Positions 4,530 through 62,184 of a stretch of 64,000 nucleotides of DNA are shown here, one piece after another. Every line of letters starts with the position of its first letter. Position 1 is the first letter of the stretch. A program made the position numbers and the translations under genes. The notes under the pieces were generated by a model that saw only the letters and a list, made by a program, of their open reading frames with translations, had not been told where the DNA came from and did not search any database. Source of the DNA: an uncultured virus (IMG/VR IMGVR_UViG_3300046665_000305) (taxonomy: Duplodnaviria; Heunggongvirae; Uroviricota; Caudoviricetes); IMG/VR virus record IMGVR_UViG_3300046665_000305, positions 1-64,000 of that record; one strand, given 5' to 3'.

Positions 4530-4564
4530 ATGCCCATTCCTATTCTATTTTGTTTTTATTATTG

Positions 4565-6086: not shown

Positions 6087-6281
6087 TATCAGGCTCCAAA
6101 GAAAGTAAAATATCGGCGTTCGGCAGGGTCAAGTGGCACGGCATTAACATCGCCACTGGCCCAAATGACATTAATACCAACGGGAAGTTCGAACATATCT
6201 TCCTTCTCTTCTTGTGGGGCTTCTGAATTTAGATAATCGTTATAATCTAAACGGAACTGCGAATAGGCGGCACGGATTTCT

Positions 6282-6752: not shown

Positions 6753-6753
6753 T

Positions 6754-8109: not shown

Positions 8110-9278
8110 CCTTTCAAGATTAAGGGTTTGACTCGTTCAAATTTCTGCTCAGATTCACACGCCTCTCGGAGCCGGTTCATTATTTCATCTTCCATCTCAT
8201 CCAATGGAAAATCTTTATCCCATAGGTGGAAAATGATGGACTTAATCAATGGAGGAGCCTTTGAATTTATTGCGAAGTCCTTACGCGGAAGGCGCTGCTT
8301 CAAAATAGCGTTGACTTCACCGAACAGCGTATTGCCAAGCTCTGCAATGTTTTTGTTTAATTGAATCTCGTAAGCCTCTGCACGAGCCAAATCTTCGGCT
8401 AGCATGAATGGCTTTAGATCGTCTAGTTGCTGAGCCAAGAGGATAGCGACGAAGTGTCTTTCTTTCTGAATCTTATCCTTGGTGCGGTGAAGATTGATAT
8501 AATCTTGCGTCTTCACCTTGACCATGTGGCCGTCGTGAAAGCGAAGGACTTCACCTTCAGTCATTTCGTCGGACTTCAGTTCGTAGATGAAATTAACATA
8601 TTCTGCCATAGAATGAAGGGGAGCTTCGTTTTTGCTCACAACTTCGATGCCGTATTCTTTTACCGAGTCACAGTTAACCATTTCGTCGTAGGTCATGTAC
8701 CAACCATCAAAGGTGTGGCGAACAGCAGTCAGCACAAGCCTATCTACTGGATAATCCACAACAATTCTATTCAAACGGCTGCACCATTCAAAAATAGGAG
8801 TAAAGCCGTCATCCATAGCTTCGTTGCAAAATTCAATAATTTCCTGAAAATGATTAGCGACCAGCCAATTCTCGGTTTGCATTGAGGTATCAGTAATACC
8901 CATTTTGGTGGCCCAACGTTGAGCACCCCTGATTCGTAACGGATGAACCATAGACCCATCAAGCTTTTCCAAACGATTATAGATTTTTGAAATATCGATA
9001 GAGGGAAGAAGAGTTTCTTCACGTTCTCCCGCATTGAAAAATTTATGGTAAACACGAGATATAGTCTCGCCCGTTGTGCTGTCAAACTTAATGCCACGAA
9101 GTTCCCTACGAATCGCAGTGTTACGATCTACAACAGGCGGAAATGTCTTGTTGCATGGCAGCTTGTAGTTAATGACGGTGTAGCCATCTTTTTCCACGAC
9201 GTAGAAAAGGTCTTCATCGCCTTTGATTGCATCAAGCGCTTGCTGAATGTGAACGATCCGAGGGAATTCGTAATTCAT
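8097..9278 (-). CDS. rnlA: RNA ligase 1 (T4 RnlA family)
   Basis: ELRGI.F, YHKFFN.GE, EKLDGSM, TPIFEW, NRIVVDY, EGEV, VKVKT..Y. Confidence 0.9.
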   Translation of the reverse strand: MNYEFPRIVHIQQALDAIKGDEDLFYVVEKDGYTVINYKLPCNKTFPPVVDRNTAIRRELRGIKFDSTTGETISRVYHKFFNAGEREETLLPSIDISKIYNRLEKLDGSMVHPLRIRGAQRWATKMGITDTSMQTENWLVANHFQEIIEFCNEAMDDGFTPIFEWCSRLNRIVVDYPVDRLVLTAVRHTFDGWYMTYDEMVNCDSVKEYGIEVVSKNEAPLHSMAEYVNFIYELKSDEMTEGEVLRFHDGHMVKVKTQDYINLHRTKDKIQKERHFVAILLAQQLDDLKPFMLAEDLARAEAYEIQLNKNIAELGNTLFGEVNAILKQRLPRKDFAINSKAPPLIKSIIFHLWDKDFPLDEMEDEIMNRLREACESEQKFERVKPLILKGCEW

Positions 9279-9299
9279 TAAATTAAACTTTCTAAGTGC

Positions 9300-9632
9300 T
9301 TATCGTGTCCGTGAATGCGGTCCCATCATCCAATCTTCAATTGTCATATGATTTAAATAATCAGACATTGAGGGGATTCGACCCAAGTCTTCCATAACGT
9401 GTTGCTCGCCAATATCTCTGACTGAGACAGTTTTGCCATCACTGTTCGTGATATGATGACCAAACACGTCTGCCACTAGATAAATGCCGAACGCGGTATG
9501 AAGAATTGCTCTGTGACGCACATCGGCATGACTTGATTTTGTGCTGTCGAAATATTCATGAATTTTAATATAATCTGAAGGAGTGCCGCCAAACTTGGCG
9601 GCACTTGACCTTGCATGAATAAAGGGTTTCAT
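9300..9632 (-). CDS. conserved hypothetical protein (DUF6915-like)
   Basis: HARSSA.KFGG, HRAILH..FG, VRDIGEQHV.EDLG. Confidence 0.65.
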   Translation of the reverse strand: MKPFIHARSSAAKFGGTPSDYIKIHEYFDSTKSSHADVRHRAILHTAFGIYLVADVFGHHITNSDGKTVSVRDIGEQHVMEDLGRIPSMSDYLNHMTIEDWMMGPHSRTR

Positions 9633-9649
9633 AAAATAAAACTACTTTG

Positions 9650-9991
9650 TTAATCGATCCAGAATACGGCGCGGCGCGGTGGCAGAAGAGAATTTGCAAC
9701 AGTGGCAAGTTCCTTACGCTTCTGATCCAAGCGATAATCCCCGATTTCCTTAATGTCTCGGATCGCGTCAGAGATGCGGGCATAAGTGGTCTTCCAACAT
9801 GCGACCCACGTAGTATCTGTGTAATCGTCAGTAACGTCGGGCGTCATCGCGATAAAATCTAGGACGTGACCACGAAGGATATTCAGGTCCTTCCCGCCAT
9901 ACTTGGCGGCGCGGGGGATAGAGAGGTTTACCAGTACCGAGAGCTTGGCGATCCGGTCTTTCTTGTTTTCGTAATAAATTTCAGGCTTCAT
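9650..9991 (-). CDS. hypothetical protein
   Basis: ORF in operon; probable start MKPEIYY. Confidence 0.5.
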   Translation of the reverse strand: MKPEIYYENKKDRIAKLSVLVNLSIPRAAKYGGKDLNILRGHVLDFIAMTPDVTDDYTDTTWVACWKTTYARISDAIRDIKEIGDYRLDQKRKELATVANSLLPPRRAVFWID

Positions 9992-10012
9992 TTCGCATTT
10001 CCCTTTCTGCAC

Positions 10013-10369
10013 TTAAAAATCACTGAAGTCAGTTGCGTTGATAGTTCTATTGGTAAAACCGTCTTTGATTTCTAGGATGAGGCCTAGCTGCGTGTCAGTA
10101 AATATATAACTATATTGACCGCCGATTGCTCCCGTATTCTCTCTGCGGGTCGAATCAAAGAATTCTTGAACCTCTTTCGCGATTGAGGCTGATGTTTGGT
10201 ATTCGCCCATCGGGGTAGTTATGTAGCCAACCGGCTCAGGCGGCTTAGGTTTAAACAGCCACACAGTTTTTTCTTTATCTTTCAAAATATTTCTTGCCTG
10301 AGAGTGCATCTCCTTAGTGATAGCCTCACACTCGGCTTTCTCTACCTCATTCATTTCTCTAACGGCCAT
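10013..10369 (-). CDS. hypothetical protein
   Basis: 118 aa ORF in operon. Confidence 0.55.
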   Translation of the reverse strand: MAVREMNEVEKAECEAITKEMHSQARNILKDKEKTVWLFKPKPPEPVGYITTPMGEYQTSASIAKEVQEFFDSTRRENTGAIGGQYSYIFTDTQLGLILEIKDGFTNRTINATDFSDF

Positions 10370-10892
10370 GGAACTTGCAGCCTCCTAATTTGTTTATATC
10401 GAAACGATACCAAGAGCAATCATCCTTACCAGACATGGTTGTATTTTCGATCCATTTAAGACGGCCAATTGCAACGATATCGGTACAATATTTTTCCATC
10501 AATGTGGAAGATTGTTTTGTGAAAGGCCACGAACTGTCAAACAGAAGCCATGTGGGGCGAAGAGATGCAAACCTTTCGATCATTGGGTGGAGCAAACTTC
10601 TGGTCCACGGCGGATTACTTATGATTAGGTCTGCATCACTAACATGGCTTTCTTCAATTGTCAATGCGTTAAGTGATTTAATTTGAGGCGCATTCGGTTC
10701 AATGTCATATTCCGCTACACAAATTAGGCCCATTACACCCGCTAACTGTTTAGTGAGAATGCCATCGCCCGCGCAAGGTTCTACGAATTTAGTTCCAGAG
10801 GGTATAAATGCTTTAAGCGCTTGTACCGCTCTAGGATCAATAGTTCTATAATAATCTTTGGGTATTTTGTCAAAATTACTACGTTTTCCCAT
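10359..10892 (-). CDS. DNA amino-(N6A/N4C) methyltransferase
   Basis: EPCAGDG SAM-binding motif and catalytic SNPPW. Confidence 0.8.
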   Translation of the reverse strand: MGKRSNFDKIPKDYYRTIDPRAVQALKAFIPSGTKFVEPCAGDGILTKQLAGVMGLICVAEYDIEPNAPQIKSLNALTIEESHVSDADLIISNPPWTRSLLHPMIERFASLRPTWLLFDSSWPFTKQSSTLMEKYCTDIVAIGRLKWIENTTMSGKDDCSWYRFDINKLGGCKFHGR

Positions 10893-10981
10893 GTTCTTCT
10901 TTTTCTTCTAAACGCTTCAACGCGTCATTAAGTAGTTCTTTAAAAGATTTATTAGACTTAAGAACTAAGCCGTAATACCAT

Positions 10982-11308
10982 TTAATCATTTACTTTTGGC
11001 TTCCACAACTTAGCAAATTTTAGCACGTTTGGATCATCTTCCTCTAAATTAGGAAGCACAACGGCACAAGCCTTGCGACCCTCAAGAGTCTTATTCTCGT
11101 GACCGAGGTAGACGTGCTCTAGCGCAGCAATCTTATCGAATTCGCGCTGATTAACACGGACCACACATTTCTTGAAAGACATGCTGAGCCAGCCCTTATA
11201 CCTAGGCTGGTTTTGAAATTCTAGATGAGCACTTAGCACGGAGTGCGCGACAAGCGTCGGGACCATGTAGTCAGGAAACTCGTCAAGTACGGCGATGTAC
11301 ATTTTCAT
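10982..11308 (-). CDS. peptidyl-tRNA hydrolase 2-like protein
   Basis: KMYI.V, VAH, W...SFKK.V.RV; size and layout typical of phage PTH2-like proteins. Confidence 0.65.
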   Translation of the reverse strand: MKMYIAVLDEFPDYMVPTLVAHSVLSAHLEFQNQPRYKGWLSMSFKKCVVRVNQREFDKIAALEHVYLGHENKTLEGRKACAVVLPNLEEDDPNVLKFAKLWKPKVND

Positions 11309-11560
11309 TTTTTTAATTTTCGCAATCAGATTGATGTTTCATGAGGTACAGTTGAATGGTTTCCCACCAGCCTTCAGGAATATTTTCGGTGCAGCTGTAA
11401 AGTAGCCAACGCTCATTGTGAAGACCAAAACCCATTTCAGTATATTCAGTTTCGTCTTCGTTAAGGACGTGGACATAGAGACAATCGCTATTATAAGCCA
11501 CCGGTACATCGTCGCTAACTTGTGCCAGAGCTTCCATAATAATTTGAGGAATTTCTGCCA

Positions 11561-12010
11561 TCAAAAGTTCCCCGGCGCGACTTGGAAGCAGGGAATACCT
11601 CTGGCTCGCCATGCCGCAACGACTTGGTCACGGTCATCAAGCGCAAAGCTAGGATTGAATCCATCTGCAATGATTTGATCCAGCAGTTCCATCTTAACGA
11701 TATCGTCGCGGCGGCTATCGTTCTTCGCTCTCATATAGAGAGCGTGATAGTTGACCCTATTCCGCAGCCATTCCTCTGTGTGATCCCTAGACTGCTCGCC
11801 ACGGCCAGAGCAAAGCACGACGCGCCAGCCAGCGGCATAAAGCGTGTTGACCAAATCAATGACATGCTGATGTGGAGGATCGTGAGGGATTCCGGCTTCG
11901 AAAGCTTTCCAGTTGGAAGGCTTGGATTGCACGTAATGTTGACGGTGCGAGCAATCAGCTACCGTGCCGTCTAGATCGACAATAATATCACGCATCAATA
12001 ATTTTCCCAT
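11561..12010 (-). CDS. polynucleotide 3'-phosphatase (HAD, PseT C-terminal-like)
   Basis: DLDGT, SGR, MR...D.R.D..VK, LDDR.QVV..WR..G..C.QVA.G.F. Confidence 0.9.
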   Translation of the reverse strand: MGKLLMRDIIVDLDGTVADCSHRQHYVQSKPSNWKAFEAGIPHDPPHQHVIDLVNTLYAAGWRVVLCSGRGEQSRDHTEEWLRNRVNYHALYMRAKNDSRRDDIVKMELLDQIIADGFNPSFALDDRDQVVAAWRARGIPCFQVAPGNF

Positions 12011-20883: not shown

Positions 20884-22308
20884 TTAGATCGAAGCGTTAG
20901 CCCTGACCTCTGTGAACGTGATTGGTAGCTTCAGCCATTTACCTGTGTTCCAAATAGGCTTTAGGTAATTCTCGGTCCCATGTGAAGCATTAGCCAAGTC
21001 ACTGAACTTGACAGACACTAGCTTGGTGCCGTTGTGAACCACGGCTTGACGGCCACCCTTGCTCGACTTGCTCATGTCGGTCTTAGGCTTCTTTTGAACC
21101 TCGATTCGTTCATTTCCGATACGAATTTCGTTCGTCTTCATGGCCCAAGAGAAATCATCGCGCATTGGAGCCTGCAAAAGCTGTCCGCCCATCCCGAAGC
21201 AAATATTCTCGGCTGAGAAGCCAAAATCTTCCACAGCTTCAAGAATATCTTCAATAGAATTGAGATTTACGCCGTCGCCTTGGATGACACGAACTTTAGG
21301 ATTTAATACTTTAAAGCCCTTAGAGTTGATCGTGCTGCCAAACTTTTCATCCAGAAGTTCTAGAACATGAGGTACGATTTCGGTCGGTTCACCACTATCA
21401 GGTCGGACCACGATCCAGCCGTCACGAGCCTCAATCTTTTCCTTATGATCCATGCCGATGTACTGAGACACGAAGCGGTCAAGATCGTAACTATCTCCAA
21501 CGATTGAGATAATTGGATATCCCATCTCGGTAAACGTATCAATTACACGTCCAACGAAGGCAGATTCCCCTGCTTCGCCATTCATAGTCGTTACGCTATG
21601 TTCGGTAGCTGGCACTGAAATGATAACAGGACCATCTCGCTCAAGATCATGTTCATAATAATCTTCAGCCGCACCAATTGCTTCGACAGTATCGGAACCG
21701 AGGAAGTTAATGGCATGCGCTAATCCGCCAAGTGCTGCTGTTTCACCGGATGATGTGCCACGAGCGCCGAAGTCATTGAGGGCGCAAGCCAGTGTCATAG
21801 GGTCTTTAATGTCAAGATCGGACGTGTATTTATAAGCACTGGCGATTGTTTGCTTGATTTTGCGGCTCAGTGTTGCGACCGTGCTAGGATACCAAATCGC
21901 ACGAAGCAAACTAGTCTCGATATCAGCTACGATTTCAGGCATAGCATCGGAACTGACCTGGACCACGACAACGCCGGGACTAACGACAGTGCCTTCGGCC
22001 AAAGCTTCAATCTTTACCGGAACATAACCGCCATATTCATTGACGACACGTTCCCACAATTTGCGGTGAAACGGGACCATTGCCGACTTGGCATGGCGTT
22101 CCGCTCTGTCAATATCAACCCAAGACAACCTCTTGGTCAGATATTCCTTGATCCAAGCCTGAAGGCCGAAGAAGACGATTTCGTCGGTGTAAGCCGTCTT
22201 GCGCGCTTCGATATAAGAGGTAGCGCCTGTAATATCCTTTCGGACCACAAACGGATGGCTAAATTTGTAATTGTCGGTACTGGTAATTAGTGAACGTGTA
22301 AGTAGCAT
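20884..22308 (-). CDS. nadV: nicotinamide phosphoribosyltransferase (NAMPT)
   Basis: TDNYKFSH, FFGLQ, IWYPSTVAT, DFGARG, PATEHS, RPDSG, IQGDG, FGMGG.LLQ. Confidence 0.95.
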   Translation of the reverse strand: MLLTRSLITSTDNYKFSHPFVVRKDITGATSYIEARKTAYTDEIVFFGLQAWIKEYLTKRLSWVDIDRAERHAKSAMVPFHRKLWERVVNEYGGYVPVKIEALAEGTVVSPGVVVVQVSSDAMPEIVADIETSLLRAIWYPSTVATLSRKIKQTIASAYKYTSDLDIKDPMTLACALNDFGARGTSSGETAALGGLAHAINFLGSDTVEAIGAAEDYYEHDLERDGPVIISVPATEHSVTTMNGEAGESAFVGRVIDTFTEMGYPIISIVGDSYDLDRFVSQYIGMDHKEKIEARDGWIVVRPDSGEPTEIVPHVLELLDEKFGSTINSKGFKVLNPKVRVIQGDGVNLNSIEDILEAVEDFGFSAENICFGMGGQLLQAPMRDDFSWAMKTNEIRIGNERIEVQKKPKTDMSKSSKGGRQAVVHNGTKLVSVKFSDLANASHGTENYLKPIWNTGKWLKLPITFTEVRANASI

Positions 22309-22325
22309 ATTAGAAACTCCTTCGC

Positions 22326-23417
22326 TTATGCGTTGATAATATCATTAATAATTTGTTCGTGATCCTCAAAGAACTGACCACGCATAGTGGGCAGCATTGA
22401 AATAGGAATCCACTGAGCATGTTTCGCGTCGTCGGACCCTTTCACTTCAGGCAATCCAGCCTTCACATTTTCAAGAACAAACTTGAAGCAATGAGAGATG
22501 ATGTGACTTCTGTTGCTCCTGAAAGGGTTGTCATAAACCTTAGAGGCTTGCAATGATCCAAACAGAACCTTTTCAGGTACTTTCAGTCTTGTCTCTTCAC
22601 GCAGTTCACGAACAGCGGCATGAATCAGACGTTCGCGATTAACGAAGCCTCCCGGCATGGCCCACAGATCGCGGCCATAATCATTTCCACGTTTAATAAG
22701 GAGAATGTGACCAGCTTGAATCACTGCGCTGTCTACCGTGGTGTGTGGACCACGGCCCCATGCCGCTTCATATCCCTTCTCATATTCCCAATCAGATCGC
22801 AGACCTTCCCAAATCTCGGGTTTAACCTTAATATGATTACCGATTGCGGTTTTCACTCTCGGATCAAGGTGAGGCGCTGTTGCGATGTTACCAGCGAAAA
22901 GGTATTCTCGAACAGCTGTAGCGCTAAGCACTTCGCCTTCGTAATCCGCTGGACTAACGGCTATTGACTCGTACTGAGGAAATAGTTTCAAATAGAAGCT
23001 AGTCTCGTCTTTCGACATACCGGCGAGCGCGATGGAATGAGTGTAATCCTTGAAACCGCGATTTGTATATTTCGCTACTGGTTCATGATTACGAATCGCG
23101 CTATTTACGGCATGTTGAACTTCCGCGAGCCAGAGATTATCGTTATACGGATAATCACCAACACTTGTGAGCAGAATCCGTTCGTCGTGATTCGTAGCGA
23201 TACGAATCATTTCCTGACGTTCCAAAGCTGTAAAGGGGGTTCTTGTGTTCCGCGCCAAGTTGTCGGAACCGCAAACTACGATAAGATAATCGCATTTCGC
23301 AAGCGCTTCCATCATTACTTTGACGTGGCCGTCGTGGATGGGAGCAAAACGTCCAATGAAGACGCCATAGTCGTATTTAATACCCGGCATTTGAAACTCC
23401 TTCTCTTGCCATTTCAT
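22326..23417 (-). CDS. nadM: bifunctional NMN adenylyltransferase / ADP-ribose Nudix hydrolase
   Basis: FIGRFAPIHDGH (HxGH), LSAT.VR, Nudix box GG...AAVRELREET, GSDDA, FFEDH. Confidence 0.92.
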   Translation of the reverse strand: MKWQEKEFQMPGIKYDYGVFIGRFAPIHDGHVKVMMEALAKCDYLIVVCGSDNLARNTRTPFTALERQEMIRIATNHDERILLTSVGDYPYNDNLWLAEVQHAVNSAIRNHEPVAKYTNRGFKDYTHSIALAGMSKDETSFYLKLFPQYESIAVSPADYEGEVLSATAVREYLFAGNIATAPHLDPRVKTAIGNHIKVKPEIWEGLRSDWEYEKGYEAAWGRGPHTTVDSAVIQAGHILLIKRGNDYGRDLWAMPGGFVNRERLIHAAVRELREETRLKVPEKVLFGSLQASKVYDNPFRSNRSHIISHCFKFVLENVKAGLPEVKGSDDAKHAQWIPISMLPTMRGQFFEDHEQIINDIINA

Positions 23418-35763: not shown

Positions 35764-36411
35764 TTAGTTGAAGACTTCTTCAGATTTACGCCACTCAAAG
35801 TGACCATAAAGTGTATTTCCGAGGAAGTAAATGTACTGGATCACCACGAAATAAGCTTCCTGCTTGAAGTATAGGTAGATCGACAAGACATTGAGGACAA
35901 AGAATACGGCCCACGATGTGCGATGCTTATTGTCGAGCATGGCTTGAGCCACGGCATAGACTACAGCTGTCGTAACATCTACCCAAGTCTGCTCGTAGCC
36001 GAAATATCCATTGACGATGGTCAGGATCAAATAAGTGGCAAGCCCGATTCCGACATATCCGAGCCACCAAGCCGCATTCGGATTAGTAACGGGGCGGGTC
36101 ACGTCATCGCTGCGCCAGCGGAACCAGCCATAAATCAGGTTGATCGATAGGAGGATGTTGAACAGGCCGACCGCAGGTAGATCGGCTCTGTAAGACAAAA
36201 TGGCATAAAGAATGGTGGAAACCGCGCCGAGCGGGTAATTCCATCTCGTTTGGAACACGCACATCAGAGTGCAGACATAACTGGTCCAAATTGCAAAGAA
36301 TTCGACATAGTTAAAATTATGCACATCAACGAGACCAAGTGCCGCGCCCATTACATAAGTGATAATGGTAAGGTTTGTGCCCCAACCCAAGCTAGCCCAA
36401 TATTTATTCAT
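35764..36411 (-). CDS. pnuC: nicotinamide riboside transporter PnuC
   Basis: Multi-TM; WNYP.G, YGW..W, D..T, AQ.ML..K...SW, YG...W. Confidence 0.88.
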   Translation of the reverse strand: MNKYWASLGWGTNLTIITYVMGAALGLVDVHNFNYVEFFAIWTSYVCTLMCVFQTRWNYPLGAVSTILYAILSYRADLPAVGLFNILLSINLIYGWFRWRSDDVTRPVTNPNAAWWLGYVGIGLATYLILTIVNGYFGYEQTWVDVTTAVVYAVAQAMLDNKHRTSWAVFFVLNVLSIYLYFKQEAYFVVIQYIYFLGNTLYGHFEWRKSEEVFN

Positions 36412-41412: not shown

Positions 41413-42255
41413 TCAAATGTTTTCGCCATATTCAGCCTCTGCAATTTCTGTGACTCTTGATATAATTTTCTTTTGATCTGCGGCGTACCAACCGGCGCTT
41501 GCAAATCCATTTAGCTCAACAATTTTAGGAACACCATCTGCCATTAGTGCAACGTCACAGGTGTAGACCGTGTCGAGTTGCCATGGCAGGCGTGCCACAG
41601 CTGCTGCGACTTCTTCACATTCCGCTGGCCAATCTCTGCGAATATCCAGATTTCCATCCCAACGATATTCCGAACCGGCAATAACTTCGCCAGCACCTAT
41701 GATGAATCGAAATTCGCCTTTAATGTCATGCTTTTTCGATTTCGCAATCATGACGATTGTTTCATCCGTAACAGCAGTTAATTGCTGCGTCGAATTAGCT
41801 TCGAAAAGGAAATCGCTATAGAAGATGGCTTGGCCAGTGAAACTCTTATCGCCACTCATGGGGCGAATGAAAATTTCATAACACTGAAGCAGTTCGTAAA
41901 TCGATTGCCATCTCGCCTTCAGGTCGCCCCATGTCAGCATGATATAGTCAGAGTTGAGGAACCAGTCATGAGGAATGTTCGTCATGTAGACATTACACTG
42001 ACGATTCTGAGTGTAGCCATAAGCGCCGGGGGCGAAAACTCGTGGGCACTTCTTGACGAAGTTGATTGTTCCATAAATGACGACAGGATCGCCATCTTTG
42101 AAAGGGCCATAGTCTTGGTCTTTCGCGTCAGCGAAAGGAATATATTGGGCATAGTAATAAGGAATGCCTAATTCTTTAAAATTTTCATCCATGTTCCGAT
42201 ACAGCGGACTGCGATCAAACATGTAATTGTCGATTAGCCATGAAATTTTGGTCAA
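41413..42255 (-). CDS. ATP-grasp domain protein (DUF4343/R2K-like)
   Basis: FIRP..G.K.FTG, EFRF, CDVA, IVELN.F..AG.Y. Confidence 0.75.
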   Translation of the reverse strand: MTKISWLIDNYMFDRSPLYRNMDENFKELGIPYYYAQYIPFADAKDQDYGPFKDGDPVVIYGTINFVKKCPRVFAPGAYGYTQNRQCNVYMTNIPHDWFLNSDYIMLTWGDLKARWQSIYELLQCYEIFIRPMSGDKSFTGQAIFYSDFLFEANSTQQLTAVTDETIVMIAKSKKHDIKGEFRFIIGAGEVIAGSEYRWDGNLDIRRDWPAECEEVAAAVARLPWQLDTVYTCDVALMADGVPKIVELNGFASAGWYAADQKKIISRVTEIAEAEYGENI

Positions 42256-48304: not shown

Positions 48305-49330
48305 GTGGCTAAGCTTTTGACACGAGATGATTTCAGAGAAGGCGTCTTTGCCAGAGATGGTCATCGCTGTGTCGTATGCGGAATAGGCGGAAAACTTGAT
48401 GCTCATCACATCTTAGAACGCAGATTGTTTGCCGAGGGTGGTTACTACTTAGAAAATGGTGCCAGCGTCTGTGGAATCCATCACATCGCTTGTGAGGCTA
48501 CAGACATTTCGGTGGAAGAAATCAGGGGATACGCGGGGATCACAAAGAAAGTTATCCCTGAACATTTCTATGACGATCAGGTCTACGACAAATGGGGAAA
48601 TCCTATCCTGCCTAACGGAACTAGGTTGATCGGAGAGCTTTTCTTTGATGAATCGGTTCAAAAGATTCTACATGATAAGCTCCCATTGTTCACCCATTAT
48701 GTCAAATATCCTCGCACGACTCATGTTCCTTGGTCACCGGGGATGAATGAGGATGACAGAATGTTGAAAGACATGACCGCTTTCAGCGGTATGGAAGTTG
48801 TTGTAACAGAGAAAATGGATGGCGAAAACACTACGCTTTATAATGATTATATTCACGCCAGAAGTCTTGATGGTCGAAATCATCCTAGTCGCAATTGGGT
48901 TAAAAACTTTTGGAGTTCCATTGCCATAGACATTCCTGAGCGTTGGAGAGTATGCGGTGAAAACCTCTTTGCCAAGCACTCCATCGGTTACGATAATCTC
49001 GAAACTTATTTTTACGGCTTCTCTATCTGGAACGATAAAAATGTTTGCCTTTCGTGGGATGAGACTTTGGAATGGTTTAAACTTTTAAACATTGTTCCAG
49101 TGCCTACTCTGTACCGAGGCGTATATGACGAAAAACTCATTAAAAACATAGTCTTATCGTGGGACGATCATGAAGGTTATGTCGTTCGGACTGCAAGTGA
49201 ATTTTCTTTCGGGGAATTCAAAAAATATGTTGCAAAGTGTGTAAGAAAAGGTCATATACAGACCACGAAACATTGGATGCATGGGCAGAAGATGAAAGTT
49301 AACGAACTAAAGGAGAAAATTTATGAGTGA
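48305..49330 (+). CDS. HNH domain-RNA ligase fusion
   Basis: N-terminal RD...CVVC...DAHHI..R...NG..VC..HH; C-terminal KYPRT.H.PWS, TEKMDGENT, CGEN, EGYVVR, AK.VR. Confidence 0.85.
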   Translation: MAKLLTRDDFREGVFARDGHRCVVCGIGGKLDAHHILERRLFAEGGYYLENGASVCGIHHIACEATDISVEEIRGYAGITKKVIPEHFYDDQVYDKWGNPILPNGTRLIGELFFDESVQKILHDKLPLFTHYVKYPRTTHVPWSPGMNEDDRMLKDMTAFSGMEVVVTEKMDGENTTLYNDYIHARSLDGRNHPSRNWVKNFWSSIAIDIPERWRVCGENLFAKHSIGYDNLETYFYGFSIWNDKNVCLSWDETLEWFKLLNIVPVPTLYRGVYDEKLIKNIVLSWDDHEGYVVRTASEFSFGEFKKYVAKCVRKGHIQTTKHWMHGQKMKVNELKEKIYE

Positions 49331-51050: not shown

Positions 51051-53048
51051 TTGGATTACCTGATTCGTGGTTCTGAATATCTGGCACAGCACGTAGGATT
51101 CAATCTCGTGGGTCGAAATCACGACTTGGACCGGCTCAGCGCTATTTTGATGCGCAGCGCGGCTAACTCTGTCGTGCTTGTCGGTCCCGGTGGTGTAGGT
51201 ATTACCGCGCTGTGCCTTGGACTTCAGATGAGGAAGGCTGATCCAGACGCGCCATTTGATATCGTGGCGAAGCGATTGTTCTGGCTAGATACCGATGGTC
51301 TTTTCTCATCCGGCGATTCCAACAAGACGAGTGAAGATTTCCGAAAGATCATGGCTCGTCTCGAAAAGACGCCTGATTCTATTCTGATCATCGAAGATAC
51401 GCGTGATTTCATTGAGGCTTGCCGTAACAATGGCGCGGTTCATTTCATTAATGACCTAATGTCGTCCGTTAAGCGGAACCTGACTCAGGTTATCTTTGAA
51501 ACGCGCGACGAAGATGCTGAAACTGTCATGAGGGTTCATAGTGACCTGAAGGAATGTTTCACAATGATGGACGTGATTGAGCCTGTCAAAGAGGCGCTTC
51601 ATGAAATCGTCACGAAGACAGCTGAAGGTCTGTCAAAGTATCACGAGATTGTAATCAACGATGACGCTATTCTTGAGGCGATTACACTTACGAACAAATA
51701 TCGTACCCGCGATCCGGGTCTCAGCCGTGCTCAGCCAGAGCGTAGCGTCACACTTCTGGATCGTGCACTTGCCAGTTATCGTCTCAAGGCTCACGCCGGT
51801 CTAGACGAAACTGTTTCTGCAAAGCTACGAGAATTTAATAAAAACAAAAGAGACGGCGAAATCGAAATCGCCAATCTTGAAGAAAATATTGAGCAAAAGC
51901 TGAAGGAAATCAAGGACAAGGGCGACAGTTTCAATATCGGGATTGAGCCTCCCGCCGTTATGGAACTTCGCAAAACTATTAAAGAATTCCAAAAAGTAGT
52001 TGATGCGAATAAGGCAGAATTTGATAAGTTAAAACTTCAAATTAATGCCGATCTACGCTTGACGAAAGAAATGGTGACGGAAGAATTTTCCACGATTTCA
52101 GGAATTGCGGCGTCGAAGCTTAATGAAAACGAGCGTGAAAAGCTGAAGGGTCTTGAGAACGCTTTGGGTCAGCGTATCTTCGGGCAAGCACAGGCCGTTG
52201 GTAAGTTGGCAAATGCGGTCAAAGTGGCTCGCGCCGTGCGTCGTAATAAGGAATCTCCGCAAGCTTCGTTCATGTTTCTCGGTCCATCTGGCGTTGGTAA
52301 AACCGAAATTGCAAAGGCTTTGGCCTCAATCCTCCTAGGTAGTGAGAAATCGCTGGCTCGCTTCGACATGTCGGAATACTCGGAAAAGCATGCCGTGGCA
52401 AAGCTTATCGGTGCGCCTCCCGGCTATGAACTGGCTGAGGCTGGTGGTGTTTTGACCAACTTGATGCGAACCAATCCTAATCAGATTCTTCTCTTCGATG
52501 AAATTGAAAAGGCTGATCCTCAGATTTTCAATCTCTTCCTTCAGATTCTTTCTGATGGGCGTCTCACTGATAACTTGGGCCGTACCGTATCGTTCGCAGA
52601 TTCCATCATTATCATGACAACGAATATTGGTCAGCCCCATTTCCTCAATGAGGAATTGACGTGGGAGGAGGCTGAAACTCTTGCGTATGAAGACCTAAAC
52701 AATACCTATCGTCCTGAATTCCTTAACAGATTTGCGGGCCGTGAGAACATTGTTTGCTTCAGAAAGCTTGAAGTGGAACATATCGAACATATTGTTATGC
52801 GCGAAATTAATAAAATTTCTGGCGTCTATGGCGAGGAAGGGATTGTTATCACTATTCAGGGACAAACGATCACGAATTTCTGCGCCGATCACTATGACCC
52901 TGTCATTGGGGCTCGCGGCTTGCCGGGATACATCGAAACCAATCTTGAGCCTATTTTCGCTGATTTTGCCATCGATGGCTTTACAGGTAATCTCTCTGTA
53001 AAGTATGATACTGAAACAAAATCATTTAAGGTGGAGAAGGAGCAATAA
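51051..53048 (+). CDS. ClpB/ClpA-like Hsp100 AAA+ ATPase (no N-domain, degenerate NBD1)
   Basis: NBD1 GPGGVGIT, middle coiled coil, NBD2 GPSGVGKT, DMSEY, LIGAPPGY, LFDEIEKA, GARG. Confidence 0.9.
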   Translation: MDYLIRGSEYLAQHVGFNLVGRNHDLDRLSAILMRSAANSVVLVGPGGVGITALCLGLQMRKADPDAPFDIVAKRLFWLDTDGLFSSGDSNKTSEDFRKIMARLEKTPDSILIIEDTRDFIEACRNNGAVHFINDLMSSVKRNLTQVIFETRDEDAETVMRVHSDLKECFTMMDVIEPVKEALHEIVTKTAEGLSKYHEIVINDDAILEAITLTNKYRTRDPGLSRAQPERSVTLLDRALASYRLKAHAGLDETVSAKLREFNKNKRDGEIEIANLEENIEQKLKEIKDKGDSFNIGIEPPAVMELRKTIKEFQKVVDANKAEFDKLKLQINADLRLTKEMVTEEFSTISGIAASKLNENEREKLKGLENALGQRIFGQAQAVGKLANAVKVARAVRRNKESPQASFMFLGPSGVGKTEIAKALASILLGSEKSLARFDMSEYSEKHAVAKLIGAPPGYELAEAGGVLTNLMRTNPNQILLFDEIEKADPQIFNLFLQILSDGRLTDNLGRTVSFADSIIIMTTNIGQPHFLNEELTWEEAETLAYEDLNNTYRPEFLNRFAGRENIVCFRKLEVEHIEHIVMREINKISGVYGEEGIVITIQGQTITNFCADHYDPVIGARGLPGYIETNLEPIFADFAIDGFTGNLSVKYDTETKSFKVEKEQ

Positions 53049-53797: not shown

Positions 53798-54022
53798 CGA
53801 CAAATAAAGACATTTGGTATCAAGGAAGTCTCCTTGTCACAAATATTACCCGAAAGTTTGATAAAAATACGTGGGAGGAATATGACAGGGAAGAGAAGCG
53901 CAAAGTTTTTAGACATTTTTATCCCTATGACGAGGGTCGGTCCAGAGAACTTGTTGCTATCTTTTTAAACGCTGATGATGCGGCACGTGCCGTGGCTGAT
54001 CACAACATTAGAGGAGAAAACA

Positions 54023-54436
54023 ATGTCTGACACTCTGACCAAAATTCGTACACATTTTCTGGACAGTCGCAAGGCTCGCGACACTGAAACATCGGCCTTC
54101 CTGTCAACCATCATTGGTGAGATCGAATCTAACGCTAAAATGGTTGATGGCATAAAGGTCGTGACAGAAGAGGACGTGGTCAAGGTTCTTAAATCTTTTG
54201 AAAAGAAGACAATTGAATTTTTGCTCGTCGTGCCTGAGAACGCTAAGTCACTTAAGGAGAAGGCTATCATCGAATCTTTCCTGCCTAAGCAACTTAATGA
54301 GCAAGAAATCCTTGACATTCTCGAAAAAAGTGGTACAGAGAAGGTAATGGGTTCTTTGATGAAATATCTCAAAGATCATTATGCCGGTCAATATGACGGC
54401 AAAACTGCTTCGAAAGTTGTGAAGGGGATGCTTTGA
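54023..54436 (+). CDS. GatB/YqeY domain protein
   Basis: E..I...FLP.QL.E.EI, MG..M..LK..Y.G.YDGK; SD GAGGAG. Confidence 0.85.
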   Translation: MSDTLTKIRTHFLDSRKARDTETSAFLSTIIGEIESNAKMVDGIKVVTEEDVVKVLKSFEKKTIEFLLVVPENAKSLKEKAIIESFLPKQLNEQEILDILEKSGTEKVMGSLMKYLKDHYAGQYDGKTASKVVKGML

Positions 54437-59739: not shown

Positions 59740-60320
59740 TGGATTTTAGAGTAGGTGATAGAGTTAAATTGGTTCAGCGGCGCGATCTTTACGGTGAAAC
59801 TATTCCTGATATAGCTAATGAATGGAAGCTCGATACGCCTTACATCATTTCGGCGATTAATAATCGTAACACTTGGTTAGGCCCTAATTATGCCTTTCAA
59901 GGCACATGGGATTGCGTGAACTTTGAGGGTCTTGAAGGTTACTGGTTCAGGAGCGACGATCTTGAGTACGCGGCTGAGCCGGGAACTTATTGCTCACTAG
60001 GCGGTGAGAAAGTCTATTTCGTTGGCGTCGATCCTAATAATTCTGAGCTTGCTGTGATCATTGATCATGAGCGCGATGTGACGCGGTGCTATATCCACAA
60101 CTTCATGCCGTGGCGCGAGCCGCCTAAGAAGGTCGTAGGTTACGCTGTTGTGGTGCGAGGCGCAATCAAGACCAAAGAATTATTTTTCTTGGAAAATATT
60201 CAAGATACAGAAAAAGAAGCGCATGAAGTTTTTGAGCGTGAAAATGATGGCTCAATTGAATTAGTTGAAATTTTAAAAATTGAATATGAAGAAAAATCTG
60301 AAAAACCTGTTGACATTTGA
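59733..60320 (+). CDS. hypothetical protein
   Basis: FRVGDRV phage SH3-like N-terminus. Confidence 0.6.
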   Translation: MVMDFRVGDRVKLVQRRDLYGETIPDIANEWKLDTPYIISAINNRNTWLGPNYAFQGTWDCVNFEGLEGYWFRSDDLEYAAEPGTYCSLGGEKVYFVGVDPNNSELAVIIDHERDVTRCYIHNFMPWREPPKKVVGYAVVVRGAIKTKELFFLENIQDTEKEAHEVFERENDGSIELVEILKIEYEEKSEKPVDI

Positions 60321-60338
60321 TACGGAATGTCTTAGATA
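60310..60338 (+). promoter_or_regulatory. sigma70-type promoter of the ncRNA cluster
   Basis: TTGACA-N17-TAGATA. Confidence 0.75.
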
Positions 60339-60388
60339 GGAATAACAAGATAACTAAATCTTCCTCAACTGTTGTTGAAGAAGTTTAA

Positions 60389-60638
60389 CCAAGAGTAGCT
60401 CCAAAGTATGCCTTGTGTCAAAAGGTAGCAGGTAGAGCACCACGACCTGATTTAGTGTAACGATGTGGCAAATCGTGTTACGACACTAAATAGAATTGGA
60501 TAGGATACTGCCGCAGAACAGGATTAAGTAGTGGGTCAGATCAACTCATGAAAAAGACTTAGTACCGCGTCAGTAAAATTGAAAAGGATTGGGTAGAAAA
60601 CGTGGGGGCTGGTGGTTCGAATCCATTCTCTTGGACCA
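60389..60638 (+). ncRNA. tRNA-like RNA 1 with a 156-nt insert replacing the anticodon loop and an expanded D-loop
   Basis: Acceptor CCAAGAG/CTCTTGG, A73, CCA; D stem GCTC/GAGC; AC stem CCACG/CGTGG; T arm GGTGG-TTCGAAT-CCATT. Confidence 0.8.
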
Positions 60639-60641
60639 GTT

Positions 60642-60790
60642 TGCCGAAAGGCTACGAGTAACGCCGGTTCAATTCCGGCTCGCTAATCGAGGTTTGGTAA
60701 GGAAAAGTAGGGTTCAAGTCCCTACCGAAGCGGCACATGCCGCAGGACCGGACGGTTCCGGGGATTTGGCAGTCTGGAAAGACAGACACA
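60642..60790 (+). ncRNA. structured RNA with two T-loop hairpins
   Basis: GCCGG-TTCAATT-CCGGC and GTAGGG-TTCAAGT-CCCTAC, enclosed by TGCCG/CGGCA; further hairpins CCGGA-CGGT-TCCGG and GTCTG-GAAAGA-CAGAC. Confidence 0.6.
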
Positions 60791-60793
60791 TTG

Positions 60794-61017
60794 CCGGGGT
60801 TAGCTCAGCTGGTAGAGCACTGTGAGCCTGATTCATTTCGACTGGCTTGATCACCGATAGAAGTGAATTGAACCTGAGATGAGTCGATAACATGAAAGGA
60901 ATGAAGTAATGAGAGTAATTAACTCAAGAACCGGCCCAAGTAATGTTGGAGATGATTTGAAGGGGATAAGGGGTGAAACTACAGGTGTCGGGGGTTCGAA
61001 TCCTTCACCTCGGACCA
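60794..61017 (+). ncRNA. tRNA-like RNA 2 with a 155-nt insert replacing the anticodon loop
   Basis: Acceptor CCGGGGT/ACCTCGG, A73, CCA; TA-GCTC-AGCTGGTA-GAGC; AC stem CTGTG/TACAG; T arm GGGGG-TTCGAAT-CCTTC. Confidence 0.85.
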
Positions 61018-61031
61018 TTCTTCCTCCATTA

Positions 61032-61526
61032 ATGGAGGGAAGAACTAATTTACAAGCAACGAACACGCCGTCATGGCTCGCCGCCGATATGGCAGCGCTT
61101 GCGGATATCATAATTCATGACAGGGTACTTGAACCTAGCGCTGGAACTGGCGCTATCGTGGAAGCTGTTAGTGTCTACGCTCAAAACATCACGGCGATAG
61201 AGCTTAACAAGCCTATGTTCGCTGAATTGGTGGAATCATATCCGTCTGTGGAATGTCTGAACACCAATTTCCTGAGATATAGTTTTGACAATCTGTTCGA
61301 CCGCGTCGTCATGAATCCGCCGCACAAGAATTGTGTCGAGCATGTCAGACATGCGGCGGACCAACTTGCAGAAGGTGGCCGTCTCGTCGCCCTGCTCCAT
61401 GCAACTTACTGTGACGAAATTTGTAAGATTCTCCCTGATGTAAGATTTTATCATTTACCTCGCGAAACGTTTGTGATAGGAGATAACTACATCGAAGCAG
61501 TTATCGCGGTTTGGGACAAAATTTAA
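61032..61526 (+). CDS. class I SAM-dependent (N6-adenine-type) methyltransferase
   Basis: TP, VLEPSAGTG.I, AIE, FDRVVMNPPH; start placed after the tRNA-like gene. Confidence 0.8.
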   Translation: MEGRTNLQATNTPSWLAADMAALADIIIHDRVLEPSAGTGAIVEAVSVYAQNITAIELNKPMFAELVESYPSVECLNTNFLRYSFDNLFDRVVMNPPHKNCVEHVRHAADQLAEGGRLVALLHATYCDEICKILPDVRFYHLPRETFVIGDNYIEAVIAVWDKI

Positions 61527-61710: not shown

Positions 61711-62184
61711 ATGAAAATCATCTGGAACCGTGCCGGTGGCCTTCCCGAATGTCCATATTTCCGGCTATGGGCCGTCCTGTTCAAGAAGTGGAGCGTTAGG
61801 CTTCACCAATGGCTCGGAGATGACGATCACCGTCATCCACACAATCATCCTTATTGGTTCGTTACTGTCGTGCTACGAGGCGGCTATGACGATGTGACAT
61901 ACGAAACGATTGACAACGCTGTTCTGGTAAAAGACGTTGAACGGATGCGGGCCGGAATGATTCGGTTTAGGCCAGCCGATCACATGCATTCGGTTCAAAA
62001 CGTCAGACCTAATACGTGGACCTTTCTCATCACTGGTGCTCCAATGTTTCGTTGGGGATTCCTTGTCAAGGGGAAAATCATTAAGAGAGATAAATATTTC
62101 GCGGTGCACGGTCATCATCCTTGCGATGGAACGGGCGAGGGAGTTAGGCTGAAGCCGGATGGGACAAGGATTAGTGATGCTTAA
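61711..62184 (+). CDS. cupin-like protein
   Basis: RLH...DD.RHPHNHP..F...VL.GGY, H.H.V, WGF. Confidence 0.65.
   Translation: MKIIWNRAGGLPECPYFRLWAVLFKKWSVRLHQWLGDDDHRHPHNHPYWFVTVVLRGGYDDVTYETIDNAVLVKDVERMRAGMIRFRPADHMHSVQNVRPNTWTFLITGAPMFRWGFLVKGKIIKRDKYFAVHGHHPCDGTGEGVRLKPDGTRISDA

What the first reader, a model, noticed from the sequence alone, without database searches (positions are those of the whole stretch)
60389..61017. Two tRNA-shaped RNAs whose anticodon loop is replaced by an equal-length (156/155 nt) structured domain
Seen: 60389-60638 and 60794-61017 each have a 7-bp acceptor stem, TA at positions 8-9, a GCTC/GAGC D stem, a 5-bp anticodon stem, a 5-nt variable loop, a TTCGAAT T-loop, discriminator A and encoded CCA. 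The anticodon loops are replaced by 60445-60600 (156 nt) and 60825-60979 (155 nt). The inserts differ internally but share their ends: 5' A(G)CCTGATT, and 3' TTGAA-AA-GGAT-TGGGTA-GAAAA versus TTGAA-GG-GGAT-AAGGGGT-GAAAC. These ends can pair (CCTGATT with GATTGGG or GATAAGG), leaving a GAAA-containing 3' bulge, and they enclose further hairpins (ATTTAGTGT/ACACTAAAT; TCGACT/AGTCGA; TTCATTTC/GGAATGAA). A TTGACA-N17-TAGATA promoter lies about 50 nt upstream. Inference: conserved length and junctions with divergent sequence argue against decay. Possible roles are an undescribed class of tRNA-mimic ncRNA (decoy for anticodon nucleases or uncharged-tRNA sensors, or a tmRNA-like ribosome ligand), or a new small intron type removed by self-splicing or by the phage's RNA ligases. 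Both have C1:G72 and A73; G72/A73 are known bacterial ProRS acceptor determinants.
Basis: partly seen in the sequence, partly recalled or inferred. Interest (0 to 1): 0.93.

Follow-up and report, generated by a model that had tools for sequence, protein, structure and literature searches.

The report
Phage tRNA-shaped RNAs carrying large inserts
Two neighbouring phage genes encode RNAs shaped like a phenylalanine tRNA but with a folded domain of about 150 bases wedged in beside the anticodon; the same design lies unannotated in about a dozen other phage genomes, so it is a real and apparently undescribed kind of RNA whose job is still open.

Summary
Window 60389-60638 and 60794-61017 are cloverleaf, tRNA-shaped genes (C1-G72, A73, encoded CCA). 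Each has 149 or 148 nt inserted exactly between tRNA positions 31 and 32. An intact 7-nt loop follows the insert (UAGAAAA / GUGAAAC).

This is not chance or decay. I found 13 further distinct members, making 15 sequences in 12 phage records. They include unannotated DNA of the isolates CcrColossus, CcrPW, Bajun and RHph_Y1_11. All 15 keep C1-G72/A73/CCA, a helix that pairs the two ends of the insert, and a loop NNGAARN. The cloverleaf pairs covary: 97% of cells pair, against 34-50% when partners are slid.

Nearly all members lie behind a TTGAC-N17-TAnATA-like element. They lie ahead of a methyltransferase gene and a thiol-dioxygenase-like cupin gene.

No Rfam family fits. Group I gave 0 hits in five carrier genomes, and tmRNA and YrlA do not match.

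Without RNA data I cannot tell whether the insert is removed. My best reading (0.45) is an unspliced tRNA-Phe mimic: the tRNA body serves maturation and recognition, and the insert is the working domain. The main rival (0.33) is a new kind of tRNA intron.

The parts
60310..60338 (+). Promoter-like element, TTGACA-N17-TAGATA.
   Evidence: Read. The same TTGAC[A/G]-N17-TA[G/C]ATA-like element lies upstream in 10 of 11 family loci by my own pattern. The tool's consensus scan does not list it.
60360..60383 (+). Hairpin CTTCCTCAAC-TGTT-GTTGAAGAAG just upstream of copy 1.
   Evidence: A near-identical hairpin lies between the two copies in G001.
60389..60638 (+). tRNA-shaped RNA, copy 1 (250 nt). 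Acceptor 60389-60395 / 60628-60634; D arm 60398-60438, with a 25-nt extra hairpin in the loop; AC stem 60440-60444 / 60601-60605; T arm 60611-60627; A73 plus CCA 60635-60638.
   Evidence: CM R1 scores it 284 bits. ARAGORN does not call it in any mode.
60445..60593 (+). Insert of copy 1 (149 nt). End-pairing helix W: 60446-60453 with 60586-60593. Hairpin A: 60450-60458 / 60483-60491. Helix X: 60506-60514 / 60567-60575. Hairpin Z: 60532-60536 / 60544-60548.
   Evidence: Pair counts. Helix W table. Compensatory changes against G001. RNAalifold finds A, X and Z on its own.
60594..60600 (+). 7-nt loop UAGAAAA, an anticodon-loop look-alike (GAA plus A37, but A at position 33).
60639..60793 (+). Spacer holding two T-arm-like hairpins (60663-60679 and 60708-60724) and three further hairpins. 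It is absent from G001.
   Evidence: A weak mascRNA-model hit, E 0.85.
60794..61017 (+). tRNA-shaped RNA, copy 2 (224 nt). Acceptor 60794-60800 / 61007-61013; D arm 60803-60818; AC stem 60820-60824 / 60980-60984; T arm 60990-61006; A73 plus CCA 61014-61017.
   Evidence: ARAGORN intron mode calls tRNA-Phe(gaa) i(32,148). CM R1 scores it 230 bits. Pair counts.
60825..60972 (+). Insert of copy 2 (148 nt). Helix W: CCT 60827-60829 with GGG 60970-60972. Hairpin A: 60829-60839 / 60860-60870. Helix X: 60883-60893 / 60943-60953. Hairpin Z: 60910-60913 / 60923-60926.
   Evidence: The Z-loop sequence AGTAATTAA is identical in Rhizobium phage RHph_Y1_11.
60973..60979 (+). 7-nt loop GUGAAAC (U33, GAA, A37).
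61018..61044 (+). Hairpin TTCTTCCTCCAT-TA-ATGGAGGGAAGAA directly after the CCA. It overlaps the start codon of the next gene.
   Evidence: Read.
61032..61526 (+). Methyltransferase gene, syntenic with the RNAs.
   Evidence: Weak Pfam hits to RrnaAD and Cons_hypoth95. PHROG 'DNA methyltransferase', E 4e-22. Homologues follow the RNAs in G001, L125, RHph_Y1_11, CcrColossus, CcrPW and Bajun.
61711..62184 (+). Cupin gene, syntenic with the RNAs.
   Evidence: PHROG 4786 'cysteine dioxygenase', E 1.6e-33. 51-96% identical copies follow the methyltransferase in five other loci. AF2 model pLDDT 95.3. Best folds are thiol dioxygenases, TM about 0.6.

Best explanation
These are members of an undescribed family of phage RNAs built on a tRNA-Phe-like body.

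Inferred mechanism. The operon promoter drives a transcript from which RNase P and 3' trimming cut out each unit at its acceptor stem. The unit stays whole. The L-shaped tRNA body, with C1-G72, A73 and CCA, gives it defined ends and stability. It also gives access to proteins that read tRNAs, most plausibly PheRS through G34-A35-A36 and A73.

The 145-200-nt domain hangs from the end of the anticodon stem through a closing helix. It leaves the GAA-purine loop as a 7-nt bulge and acts as the working part, either a binding surface or a decoy. It would also keep the RNA out of the ribosome's decoding site.

What is shown: the fold, its conservation, its distribution and its gene neighbourhood. What is inferred: processing, charging, and that the insert stays in.
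For: 1. The family is real and constrained.
- There are 15 distinct sequences in 12 phage records.
- The 21 cloverleaf pairs are 97.1% paired, against 34-50% when slid; 15 pairs change on both sides.
- Helix W has 3-8 bp in 15 of 15, with at least 8 different sequences.
- Co2 and PW2 differ by two compensatory changes in the extension of helix W, and by 3-4 in an inner hairpin.

2. The insert is itself a conserved fold, not filler.
- The two paralogues are only 53% identical, yet they share the same order of helices in register.
- RNAalifold recovers helices A, X and Z independently.
- The Z-loop sequence is shared between the window and RHph_Y1_11.

3. The loop is not kept as a decoding loop.
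- GAA and a purine at 37 occur in 15 of 15, but U33 in only 9 of 15 (10 if Ba1's 8-nt loop is counted).
- Neither G001 copy, nor the single copy of RHph_Y1_11, nor that of L125 has U33.
- Position 37 is G in 7 of 15. By recall, this is unlike bacterial tRNA-Phe.

4. Copy 1 carries a second, 25-nt insertion in its D loop. It is 100% conserved in G001.

5. No splicing signature was found.
- Rfam Intron_gpI gave 0 hits at E<=10 in five carrier genomes, while the model rings in 8 of 14 control genomes.
- There was nothing relevant at E<=10 on the inserts alone or on L120/L121.

6. There is precedent for phage-borne tRNA mimics. Y RNA-like RNAs are reported in phages including CcrColossus (PMC12135203, passages). 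Those map elsewhere in that genome.
Against: - The insert always sits exactly at 31/32 and leaves a complete 7-nt loop. In 8 of 15 members that loop reads AUGAARN, a passable tRNA-Phe loop once the insert is taken out. ARAGORN intron mode calls tRNA-Phe(GAA) in 11 of 15.
- CcrColossus (28 ordinary tRNAs) and Bajun (26) have no ordinary tRNA-Phe at default thresholds.
- Insert length and sequence vary widely (145-200 nt) while the tRNA body is conserved. In copy 1, body identity is 97% against 86% for the insert. This is what an intron would show.
- A cupin-linked relative in Paraglaciecola virus GD1 has the same design with a 50-nt insert and a canonical Val loop, UUGACAA.
- There is no expression or end-mapping data.
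- MFE z-scores are ordinary.
Confidence: 0.45

Rival explanations
1. The inserts are introns of genuine phage tRNA-Phe(GAA) genes. Helix W and the anticodon stem bring the two junctions together. The insert is cut out between positions 31 and 32 and the ends are joined, giving a 76-nt tRNA. The chemistry would be new, either an unrecognised self-splicing fold or cleavage and ligation by proteins such as host RtcB or phage Rnl/PNK.
For: - The insertion site is fixed and the 7-nt loop is intact in 15 of 15.
- ARAGORN intron mode calls tRNA-Phe in 11 of 15.
- The loop AUGAAR occurs in 8 of 15.
- The end-pairing helix is universal.
- CcrColossus and Bajun lack an ordinary tRNA-Phe among 28 and 26 tRNAs.
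- The window phage has three RNA ligase genes plus PNK kinase and phosphatase.
- GD1 has an RNA ligase and a phosphatase gene directly upstream of its variant.
[quoted passage not shown] 1993, seen in the reference list of PMC3984707).
Against: - U33 is lost in 5-6 of 15, and in every copy of three carriers.
- Copy 1 has a D-loop insertion.
- There are no group I matches.
- The nucleotide before the insert is G in 12, A in 2 and U in 1, not the U expected at a group I 5' splice site.
- No bulge-helix-bulge can be drawn: the junction is 1-3 nt against 7-8 nt.
- Pfam found no tRNA splicing endonuclease or RtcB among ORFs of at least 100-110 aa in G000.
- RNA ligases are absent from Bajun, RHph_Y1_11 and G003.
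- CcrColossus has a low-scoring intron-less tRNA-Phe(GAA)-like gene at 68452-68526, so the gap in its tRNA set is not clean.
Confidence: 0.33
2. The units are cis-acting leader elements of the methyltransferase-cupin operon. They would be tRNA-shaped processing or stabilising signals, or a sensor that sets expression of the downstream genes, with no role as free RNAs.
For: - The order promoter, RNA(s), methyltransferase, cupin is kept in G000, G001, L125, RHph_Y1_11, CcrColossus and CcrPW, and at least as far as the methyltransferase in Bajun.
- The next start codon lies 14-50 nt after the CCA.
- Cupin genes in GD1 and L140 are also preceded by odd tRNA-like units.
Against: - A leader needs no encoded CCA, A73, C1-G72 or invariant GAA.
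- Two tandem copies per phage are not explained.
- No terminator/antiterminator alternative was found.
Confidence: 0.12
3. They are dead tRNA genes disrupted by an insertion and drifting.
For: ARAGORN default mode and Rfam tRNA do not call them. U33 is variable.
Against: There is covariation in every stem. The design is conserved across phages whose neighbouring proteins are only 36-57% identical. GAA, A73, C1-G72 and CCA are invariant.
Confidence: 0.02

Closest known systems
Group I introns in bacterial tRNA genes (cyanobacterial tRNA-Leu(UAA) and tRNA-fMet; Azoarcus tRNA-Ile; Agrobacterium tRNA-Arg). The examples are recalled; the class is described in PMC3984707.
   Same: A structured intervening sequence of about 150-250 nt in the anticodon loop of a bacterial-type tRNA gene. 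The two tRNA halves pair in the anticodon stem.
   Different: - The site is 31/32, not within or just after the anticodon.
- No U precedes the insert.
- There is no room for P1/IGS, and no match to Rfam RF00028.
- As of 2014, every phage group I intron known lay in a protein gene, none in a phage tRNA gene (PMC3984707, passage).
tmRNA
   Same: The topology is the same: a tRNA-like acceptor and T-arm module, with a large pseudoknotted or structured domain where the anticodon loop would be. It has CCA and is matured like a tRNA.
   Different: - A complete D arm and anticodon stem are present here.
- There is no G3-U70.
- No conserved tag reading frame: the 22-codon frame of copy 1 is stopped in G001 (read by eye).
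- ARAGORN tmRNA mode finds 0 of 15. Rfam gives only a 10-bit beta_tmRNA hit on the T arm.
YrlA / bacterial and phage Y RNA-like RNAs (Rfam RF02553)
   Same: ncRNAs with a tRNA-mimicking module, known from phages including CcrColossus (PMC12135203, passage).
   Different: - In YrlA the RNA ends lie in the Ro-binding stem and the tRNA-like module is internal. Here the ends are the acceptor stem with CCA.
- Best YrlA scores in CcrColossus lie at 108.8-109.4 kb (42 bits). The family locus at 241.7 kb scores 25 bits, against a cut-off of 69, and only by joining the T arm of copy 1 to the D arm of copy 2.
- Pfam found no Ro60 gene in G000.
Protein-spliced tRNA introns of archaea and eukaryotes (bulge-helix-bulge)
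   Same: The intron is variable in length and sequence, and is closed by pairing near the anticodon loop.
   Different: - The junction here is 1-3 nt against 7-8 nt, not two 3-nt bulges around a 4-bp helix.
- The site is 31/32, not 37/38.
- These are bacterial phages, and no splicing endonuclease was detected.
Stable RNAs of unknown function in the phage T4 tRNA cluster (species 1 and 2), and engineered 'tRNA scaffold' RNAs. Both are recalled, from no call.
   Same: A tRNA-like frame is used to make or stabilise a non-tRNA RNA in a phage or expression setting.
   Different: This is an analogy only.

Membership tests
Group I intron | Match to the family covariance model (conserved core P3-P9 and P4-P6). 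| tested here: not met
   RF00028 gave no hit at E<=10 on window 60000-61400, on each insert alone, on L120/L121, or in five whole carrier genomes. The model rings in 8 of 14 control genomes.
Group I intron | A 5' splice site after a U that pairs with G of an internal guide sequence in P1. | tested here: not met
   The base before the insert is G in 12, A in 2 and U in 1 of 15. Helix W starts 1-3 nt after the stem, leaving no room for a P1 hairpin.
Group I intron | A terminal G (omega G) before the 3' exon. | tested here: inconclusive
   G precedes the 7-nt loop in 14 of 15 (Ba1 has A). That G is the closing C-G pair of helix W, which explains it equally well.
Group I intron | Self-splicing with guanosine in vitro. 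| not testable with these tools
   This needs a bench assay.
tmRNA | tRNA-Ala-like module with G3-U70, a tag reading frame, and detection by ARAGORN or Rfam. | tested here: not met
   ARAGORN -m finds 0 of 15. Position 3-70 is A-U or G-C in the window copies. No Rfam tmRNA hit above 10 bits.
YrlA (Y RNA-like) | Match to RF02553 at the gathering score, with the ends in a Ro-binding stem. | tested here: not met
   25 bits against a 69-bit cut-off, and the hit spans two adjacent units.
Canonical elongator tRNA-Phe | A 7-nt anticodon loop with U33, GAA and a purine at 37, on a continuous cloverleaf of 73-77 nt. | tested here: not met
   The cloverleaf, GAA and purine-37 are present in 15 of 15. 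But U33 occurs in only 9 of 15, and 145-200 nt interrupt 31/32. ARAGORN default mode of 15.
Canonical elongator tRNA-Phe | Aminoacylation by PheRS and use on the ribosome. | not testable with these tools
   A73, U20 in 14 of 15 (read), and GAA fit the PheRS identity set as I recall it.
Archaeal/eukaryal BHB tRNA intron | Two 3-nt bulges separated by a 4-bp helix at the splice sites. | tested here: not met
   The junction is a 1-3 nt linker opposite a 7-8 nt loop between the anticodon stem and helix W.
Known self-cleaving ribozymes (hammerhead, HDV-like, twister, pistol, hatchet, hairpin) | Match to the Rfam models. | tested here: not met
   No such family appears among all hits at E<=10.

The most novel reading that the evidence does not exclude
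The inserts are the first tRNA introns of bacteriophages and belong to a new splicing class. A helix-closed, 50-200-nt element sits at position 31/32 and is removed without a group I core or a BHB motif, restoring a phage tRNA-Phe (tRNA-Val in GD1).

A still bolder variant: the uncut RNA is a dedicated Phe-carrier on which the adjacent methyltransferase and thiol-dioxygenase-like cupin act.
Probability: 0.3. Interest if true: 0.92.

Novelty: new variant of a known kind. Interest (0 to 1): 0.8.

Why it matters
The RNAs sit unannotated in published, culturable phages. CcrColossus has been public since 2012, and its authors reported that Rfam found no RNA elements other than tRNAs (PMC3556154, passage).

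Either reading is new. If the insert stays in, phages of Alphaproteobacteria carry a tmRNA-sized tRNA mimic with an invariant GAA loop, tied to a methyltransferase-cupin operon. That would be a new player in tRNA-centred phage-host conflict. If the insert is spliced out, it is the first intron in a phage tRNA gene, and a splicing route that fits neither group I nor BHB.

The question can be settled at once with one Northern blot in the Caulobacter/CcrColossus system.

The finding also exposes an annotation error. In RHph_Y1_11 the RNA is read as the N-terminus of the methyltransferase CDS.

Tried and rejected
RNA evidence
- No RNA holder is listed for window 60300-61100. Only one DNA run with a 0.05 share was returned, and I did not lay it.

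Early homologue hunts that found only G001 or chance matches
- blastn, distant mode, of 60300-61100 against phages: no match.
- Viral pattern scans.
- Neighbour-protein scans.
- Metagenome pattern scan: 23 loci, all chance.
- Genome contigs pattern scan: 32 loci, all chance.
- CM R1 in Lacusarx, XM05, L02, Mwe-JY26 and RXM found only ordinary tRNAs.
- The break came from blastn with the 45-nt 3' half and from synteny with the methyltransferase and cupin.

My own loop-E idea
- I proposed two AGUA/GAA modules and a pseudoknot between positions 34-36 and the triplet after GAA: CUG/CAG in W1, CUU/AAG in G1, CCU/AGG in copy 2.
- It fits the four window-type sequences, including one compensatory change.
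- It is not general. RHph_Y1_11 lacks the AGUA/GAA motifs around hairpin Z, and the pseudoknot competes with helix W, which is universal.
- I keep it only as a possible alternative conformer.

Other motif ideas, rejected by reading the sequence
- Hammerhead, K-turn, box C/D, T-box NCCA pairing, and an SD-like or CsrA-sponge reading. The archaeal sR43 and sR53 hits have E 2.8-8.8.
- A tag ORF: not conserved.

Other dead ends
- The phage-ligase link: ligases are absent from 3 of 5 other carriers.
- The first cupin fold, from 5 sequences, had pLDDT 43.6 and was not used. PDB sequence search and Pfam gave nothing for the cupin.
- A MAFFT alignment of the 15 inserts alone gave no reliable common core.

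Literature
- Searches found no description of these RNAs (listings only, except where passages are cited).
- Most subscription journals are not in the library.
Full report
WHAT IS THERE

The window is the first 64 kb of a 119,575-bp IMG/VR virus record, about 65% complete. Its primase is 34-39% identical to those of Sphingobium phage Lacusarx and some Erythrobacter phages. The host is therefore probably an alphaproteobacterium.

Between tRNA positions 31 and 32 lie 149 and 148 nt, followed by a 7-nt loop: UAGAAAA in copy 1 and GUGAAAC in copy 2.

ARAGORN in default mode and Rfam at gathering score find nothing in the window. ARAGORN in intron mode calls copy 2 tRNA-Phe(GAA) with a 148-nt intron at 31/32. 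It misses copy 1, whose D loop carries an extra 25-nt hairpin.

The 155-nt spacer between the copies holds two further T-arm-like hairpins and is missing from the sister phage.

A FAMILY, NOT AN ODDITY

One related IMG/VR record, G001, has both copies. The tRNA parts are 97% and 87% identical to the window's, and the inserts 86% and 90.5%.

Pattern scans of the viral, metagenome and genome collections, and a first covariance model, found no other member.

The break came from blastn with the 45-nt 3' half of copy 2. It hit unannotated DNA in Caulobacter phages CcrColossus and CcrPW and in Brevundimonas phage Bajun. Its other hits were genes annotated tRNA-Pro.

In each of these three isolates an intergenic gap of about 670-700 bp holds two tandem units, with inserts of 172-200 nt. 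Synteny searches then added:
- one unit in Rhizobium phage RHph_Y1_11, which lies inside the annotated N-terminus of a methyltransferase CDS;
- single units in six more IMG/VR contigs, three of them identical.

In all there are 15 distinct sequences in 12 records. ARAGORN results on the 15:
- default mode: 0 calls;
- intron mode: 13 full-length calls, of which 11 are tRNA-Phe(GAA), one Gly and one Cys (the last two with other intron placements);
- tmRNA mode: 0 calls.

WHAT IS CONSERVED

All 15 have C1-G72, A73 and CCA. On the 15-sequence alignment, the 21 cloverleaf pairs are 97.1% paired, against 34-50% when partners are slid. Fifteen pairs change on both sides, and 0 of 500 shuffles reach the observed covariation score.

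The junction has the same design in all 15:
- an anticodon stem of 3-5 bp;
- a 1-3-nt linker, most often a single purine;
- a helix W of 3-8 bp formed by the two ends of the insert, in many different sequences (CCUG/CGGG, CUGG/CCAG, CCGU/ACGG, CCGC/GCGG, CCGGG/CCUGG, UCAC/GUGA, CCGUGC/GCAUGG);
- on the 3' strand, a 7-nt loop NNGAARN (8 nt in Ba1).

GAA and a purine at position 37 are invariant. U33 is present in only 9 of 15.

Inside the insert, the two window paralogues are 53% identical yet share the same helices in register. These are hairpin A (42 nt in both), helix X and hairpin Z. On the four window-type sequences, 42 pairs are 95.2% paired against 40-50% when slid, and RNAalifold recovers A, X and Z unaided. 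CcrColossus and CcrPW differ by compensatory changes in the extension of helix W and in an inner hairpin.

A common core across all lineages could not be aligned reliably.

NEIGHBOURHOOD

A TTGAC[A/G]-N17-TA[G/C]ATA-like element precedes the first unit in 10 of 11 loci by my own pattern. The tool's stricter scan lists none in the window.

Downstream come a methyltransferase and a cupin:
- The methyltransferase gives weak RrnaAD/RsmD-type Pfam hits and matches PHROG 'DNA methyltransferase'. In CcrColossus it is gp358, discussed by its authors as a possible rRNA methyltransferase (PMC3556154, passages).
- The cupin keeps 51-96% identity across the carriers. It has 50 homologous clusters, all unnamed and without a Pfam domain. 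It folds with pLDDT 95.3. It most resembles thiol dioxygenases at TM about 0.6 and 10-17% identity, alongside generic cupins.

Cupin homologues in Paraglaciecola virus GD1 and in contig L140 are also preceded by odd tRNA-like units:
- In GD1 the unit is 127 nt, with C1-G72, A73 and CCA, a 50-nt helix-closed insert and a loop UUGACAA.
- In L140 a tRNA-like unit has an 18-nt anticodon loop.

WHAT IT IS NOT

- Group I intron. The Rfam model gives no hit at E<=10 on the region, on the inserts alone, on the larger GC-rich relatives, or in five whole carrier genomes, while it rings in 8 of 14 control genomes. The base before the insert is not U, and there is no room for P1.
- tmRNA.
- YrlA. The best Y RNA-like hits of CcrColossus lie 130 kb away. 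The 25-bit hit at the family locus joins the T arm of one unit to the D arm of the next.
- A known self-cleaving ribozyme. None is listed at E<=10.
- A BHB intron. The junction geometry is wrong.

MIMIC OR INTRON?

For an intron:
- the fixed site at 31/32;
- the intact loop, which reads AUGAAR in 8 of 15;
- the helix that brings the junctions together;
- the variable length and sequence of the insert against a conserved tRNA body;
- the lack of an ordinary tRNA-Phe among the 28 and 26 tRNAs of CcrColossus and Bajun;
- the Val-type variant in GD1.

For an uncut mimic:
- U33 is lost in 5-6 of 15, and in every copy of three carriers, while GAA-R never changes. This is the pattern expected of a protein- or RNA-recognition element rather than a decoding loop.
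- G37 occurs in 7 of 15.
- The D-loop insertion of copy 1 is perfectly conserved.
- The insert has a conserved architecture.
- No splicing core or enzyme was found.
- RNA ligases are patchy among carriers.
- CcrColossus has a low-scoring, intron-less, C1-G72 tRNA-Phe(GAA)-like gene in its main tRNA cluster.

I put the mimic at 0.45 and the intron at 0.33. The remainder goes to a cis-acting operon leader (0.12), decay (0.02), and readings I have not named. No RNA run holds the stretch, so only a bench test can decide.

NOVELTY

Library searches and passages from three papers gave no description of these RNAs.
- The 2012 phiCbK/Colossus genome paper used tRNAscan-SE and Rfam and reports no RNA elements other than tRNAs. 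The word 'intron' does not occur in it.
- A 2014 review states that all phage group I introns then known lie in protein genes.

The library lacks most subscription journals, so 'not described' means not found in these searches.

Noticed in passing
window 60639-60793: The spacer between the two units holds two tRNA-top-half-like minihelices (T arms GCCGG-TTCAATT-CCGGC and TAGGG-TTCAAGT-CCCTA) and three GC-rich hairpins. The whole piece is absent from the sister phage G001, where the spacer is 40 nt.
   Followed up: partly
G000:C1:92531-92620 (minus strand; outside the window): A 90-nt tRNA-like sequence next to tRNA-Met, with C1-G72, a good T arm and a GCCA end. CM R1 found it (E 3.6e-4). ARAGORN does not call it.
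   Followed up: no
CcrColossus NC_019406.1 68452-68526 (locus L148/L173): An unannotated, low-scoring tRNA-Phe(GAA)-like gene at the head of the main tRNA cluster (Rfam tRNA 30.8 bits; ARAGORN only at -ps90). It has C1-G72, the same CCAG/CUGG anticodon stem as the insert-bearing units, and an aberrant T loop.
   Followed up: partly
Rhizobium phage RHph_Y1_11 MN988558.1 62193-62420 (L122 1289-1516): The annotated methyltransferase CDS EVC30_106 starts 240 nt too early. Its first about 80 codons are the tRNA-shaped RNA.
   Followed up: yes
window 2125-12010 and 48305-49330: An unusually rich RNA-repair set: two PF09414 RNA ligases, one T4 Rnl1-type ligase, a PNK-like kinase, a PNKP HAD phosphatase and two metallophosphoesterases. 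There is also an NAD salvage set (NAMPT, NMNAT-Nudix, PnuC) at 20884-23417 and 35764-36411.
   Followed up: no
window 4029-4529, 41413-42255, 51051-53048, 53975-54436: A proteasome-subunit-like protein, an R2K ATP-grasp protein, a ClpB/ClpA-like AAA+ protein and a YqeY/GatB-tail-like protein. The last is a domain type that binds tRNA in GatB (recalled).
   Followed up: no
CcrColossus 108836-109447 (minus strand): Three tandem YrlA-like hits (42, 30.5 and 29.9 bits, all below the 69-bit cut-off). These are probably the phage Y RNA-like genes mentioned in PMC12135203.
   Followed up: no
Citromicrobium phage vB_CbaS-RXM OL963731.1 35170-35280 (minus strand): A 111-nt sequence ending in a good T arm and CCA but without a clear acceptor stem (CM R1, E 0.004).
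   Followed up: no
Paraglaciecola virus GD1 MW805361.1 113999-114125 (L180 2168-2294): An unannotated 127-nt tRNA-Val(GAC)-like unit with a 50-nt helix-closed insert. It lies between an RNA ligase/phosphatase gene pair and the cupin gene. The 5-nt linker on its 5' side reads GAAGA.
   Followed up: partly
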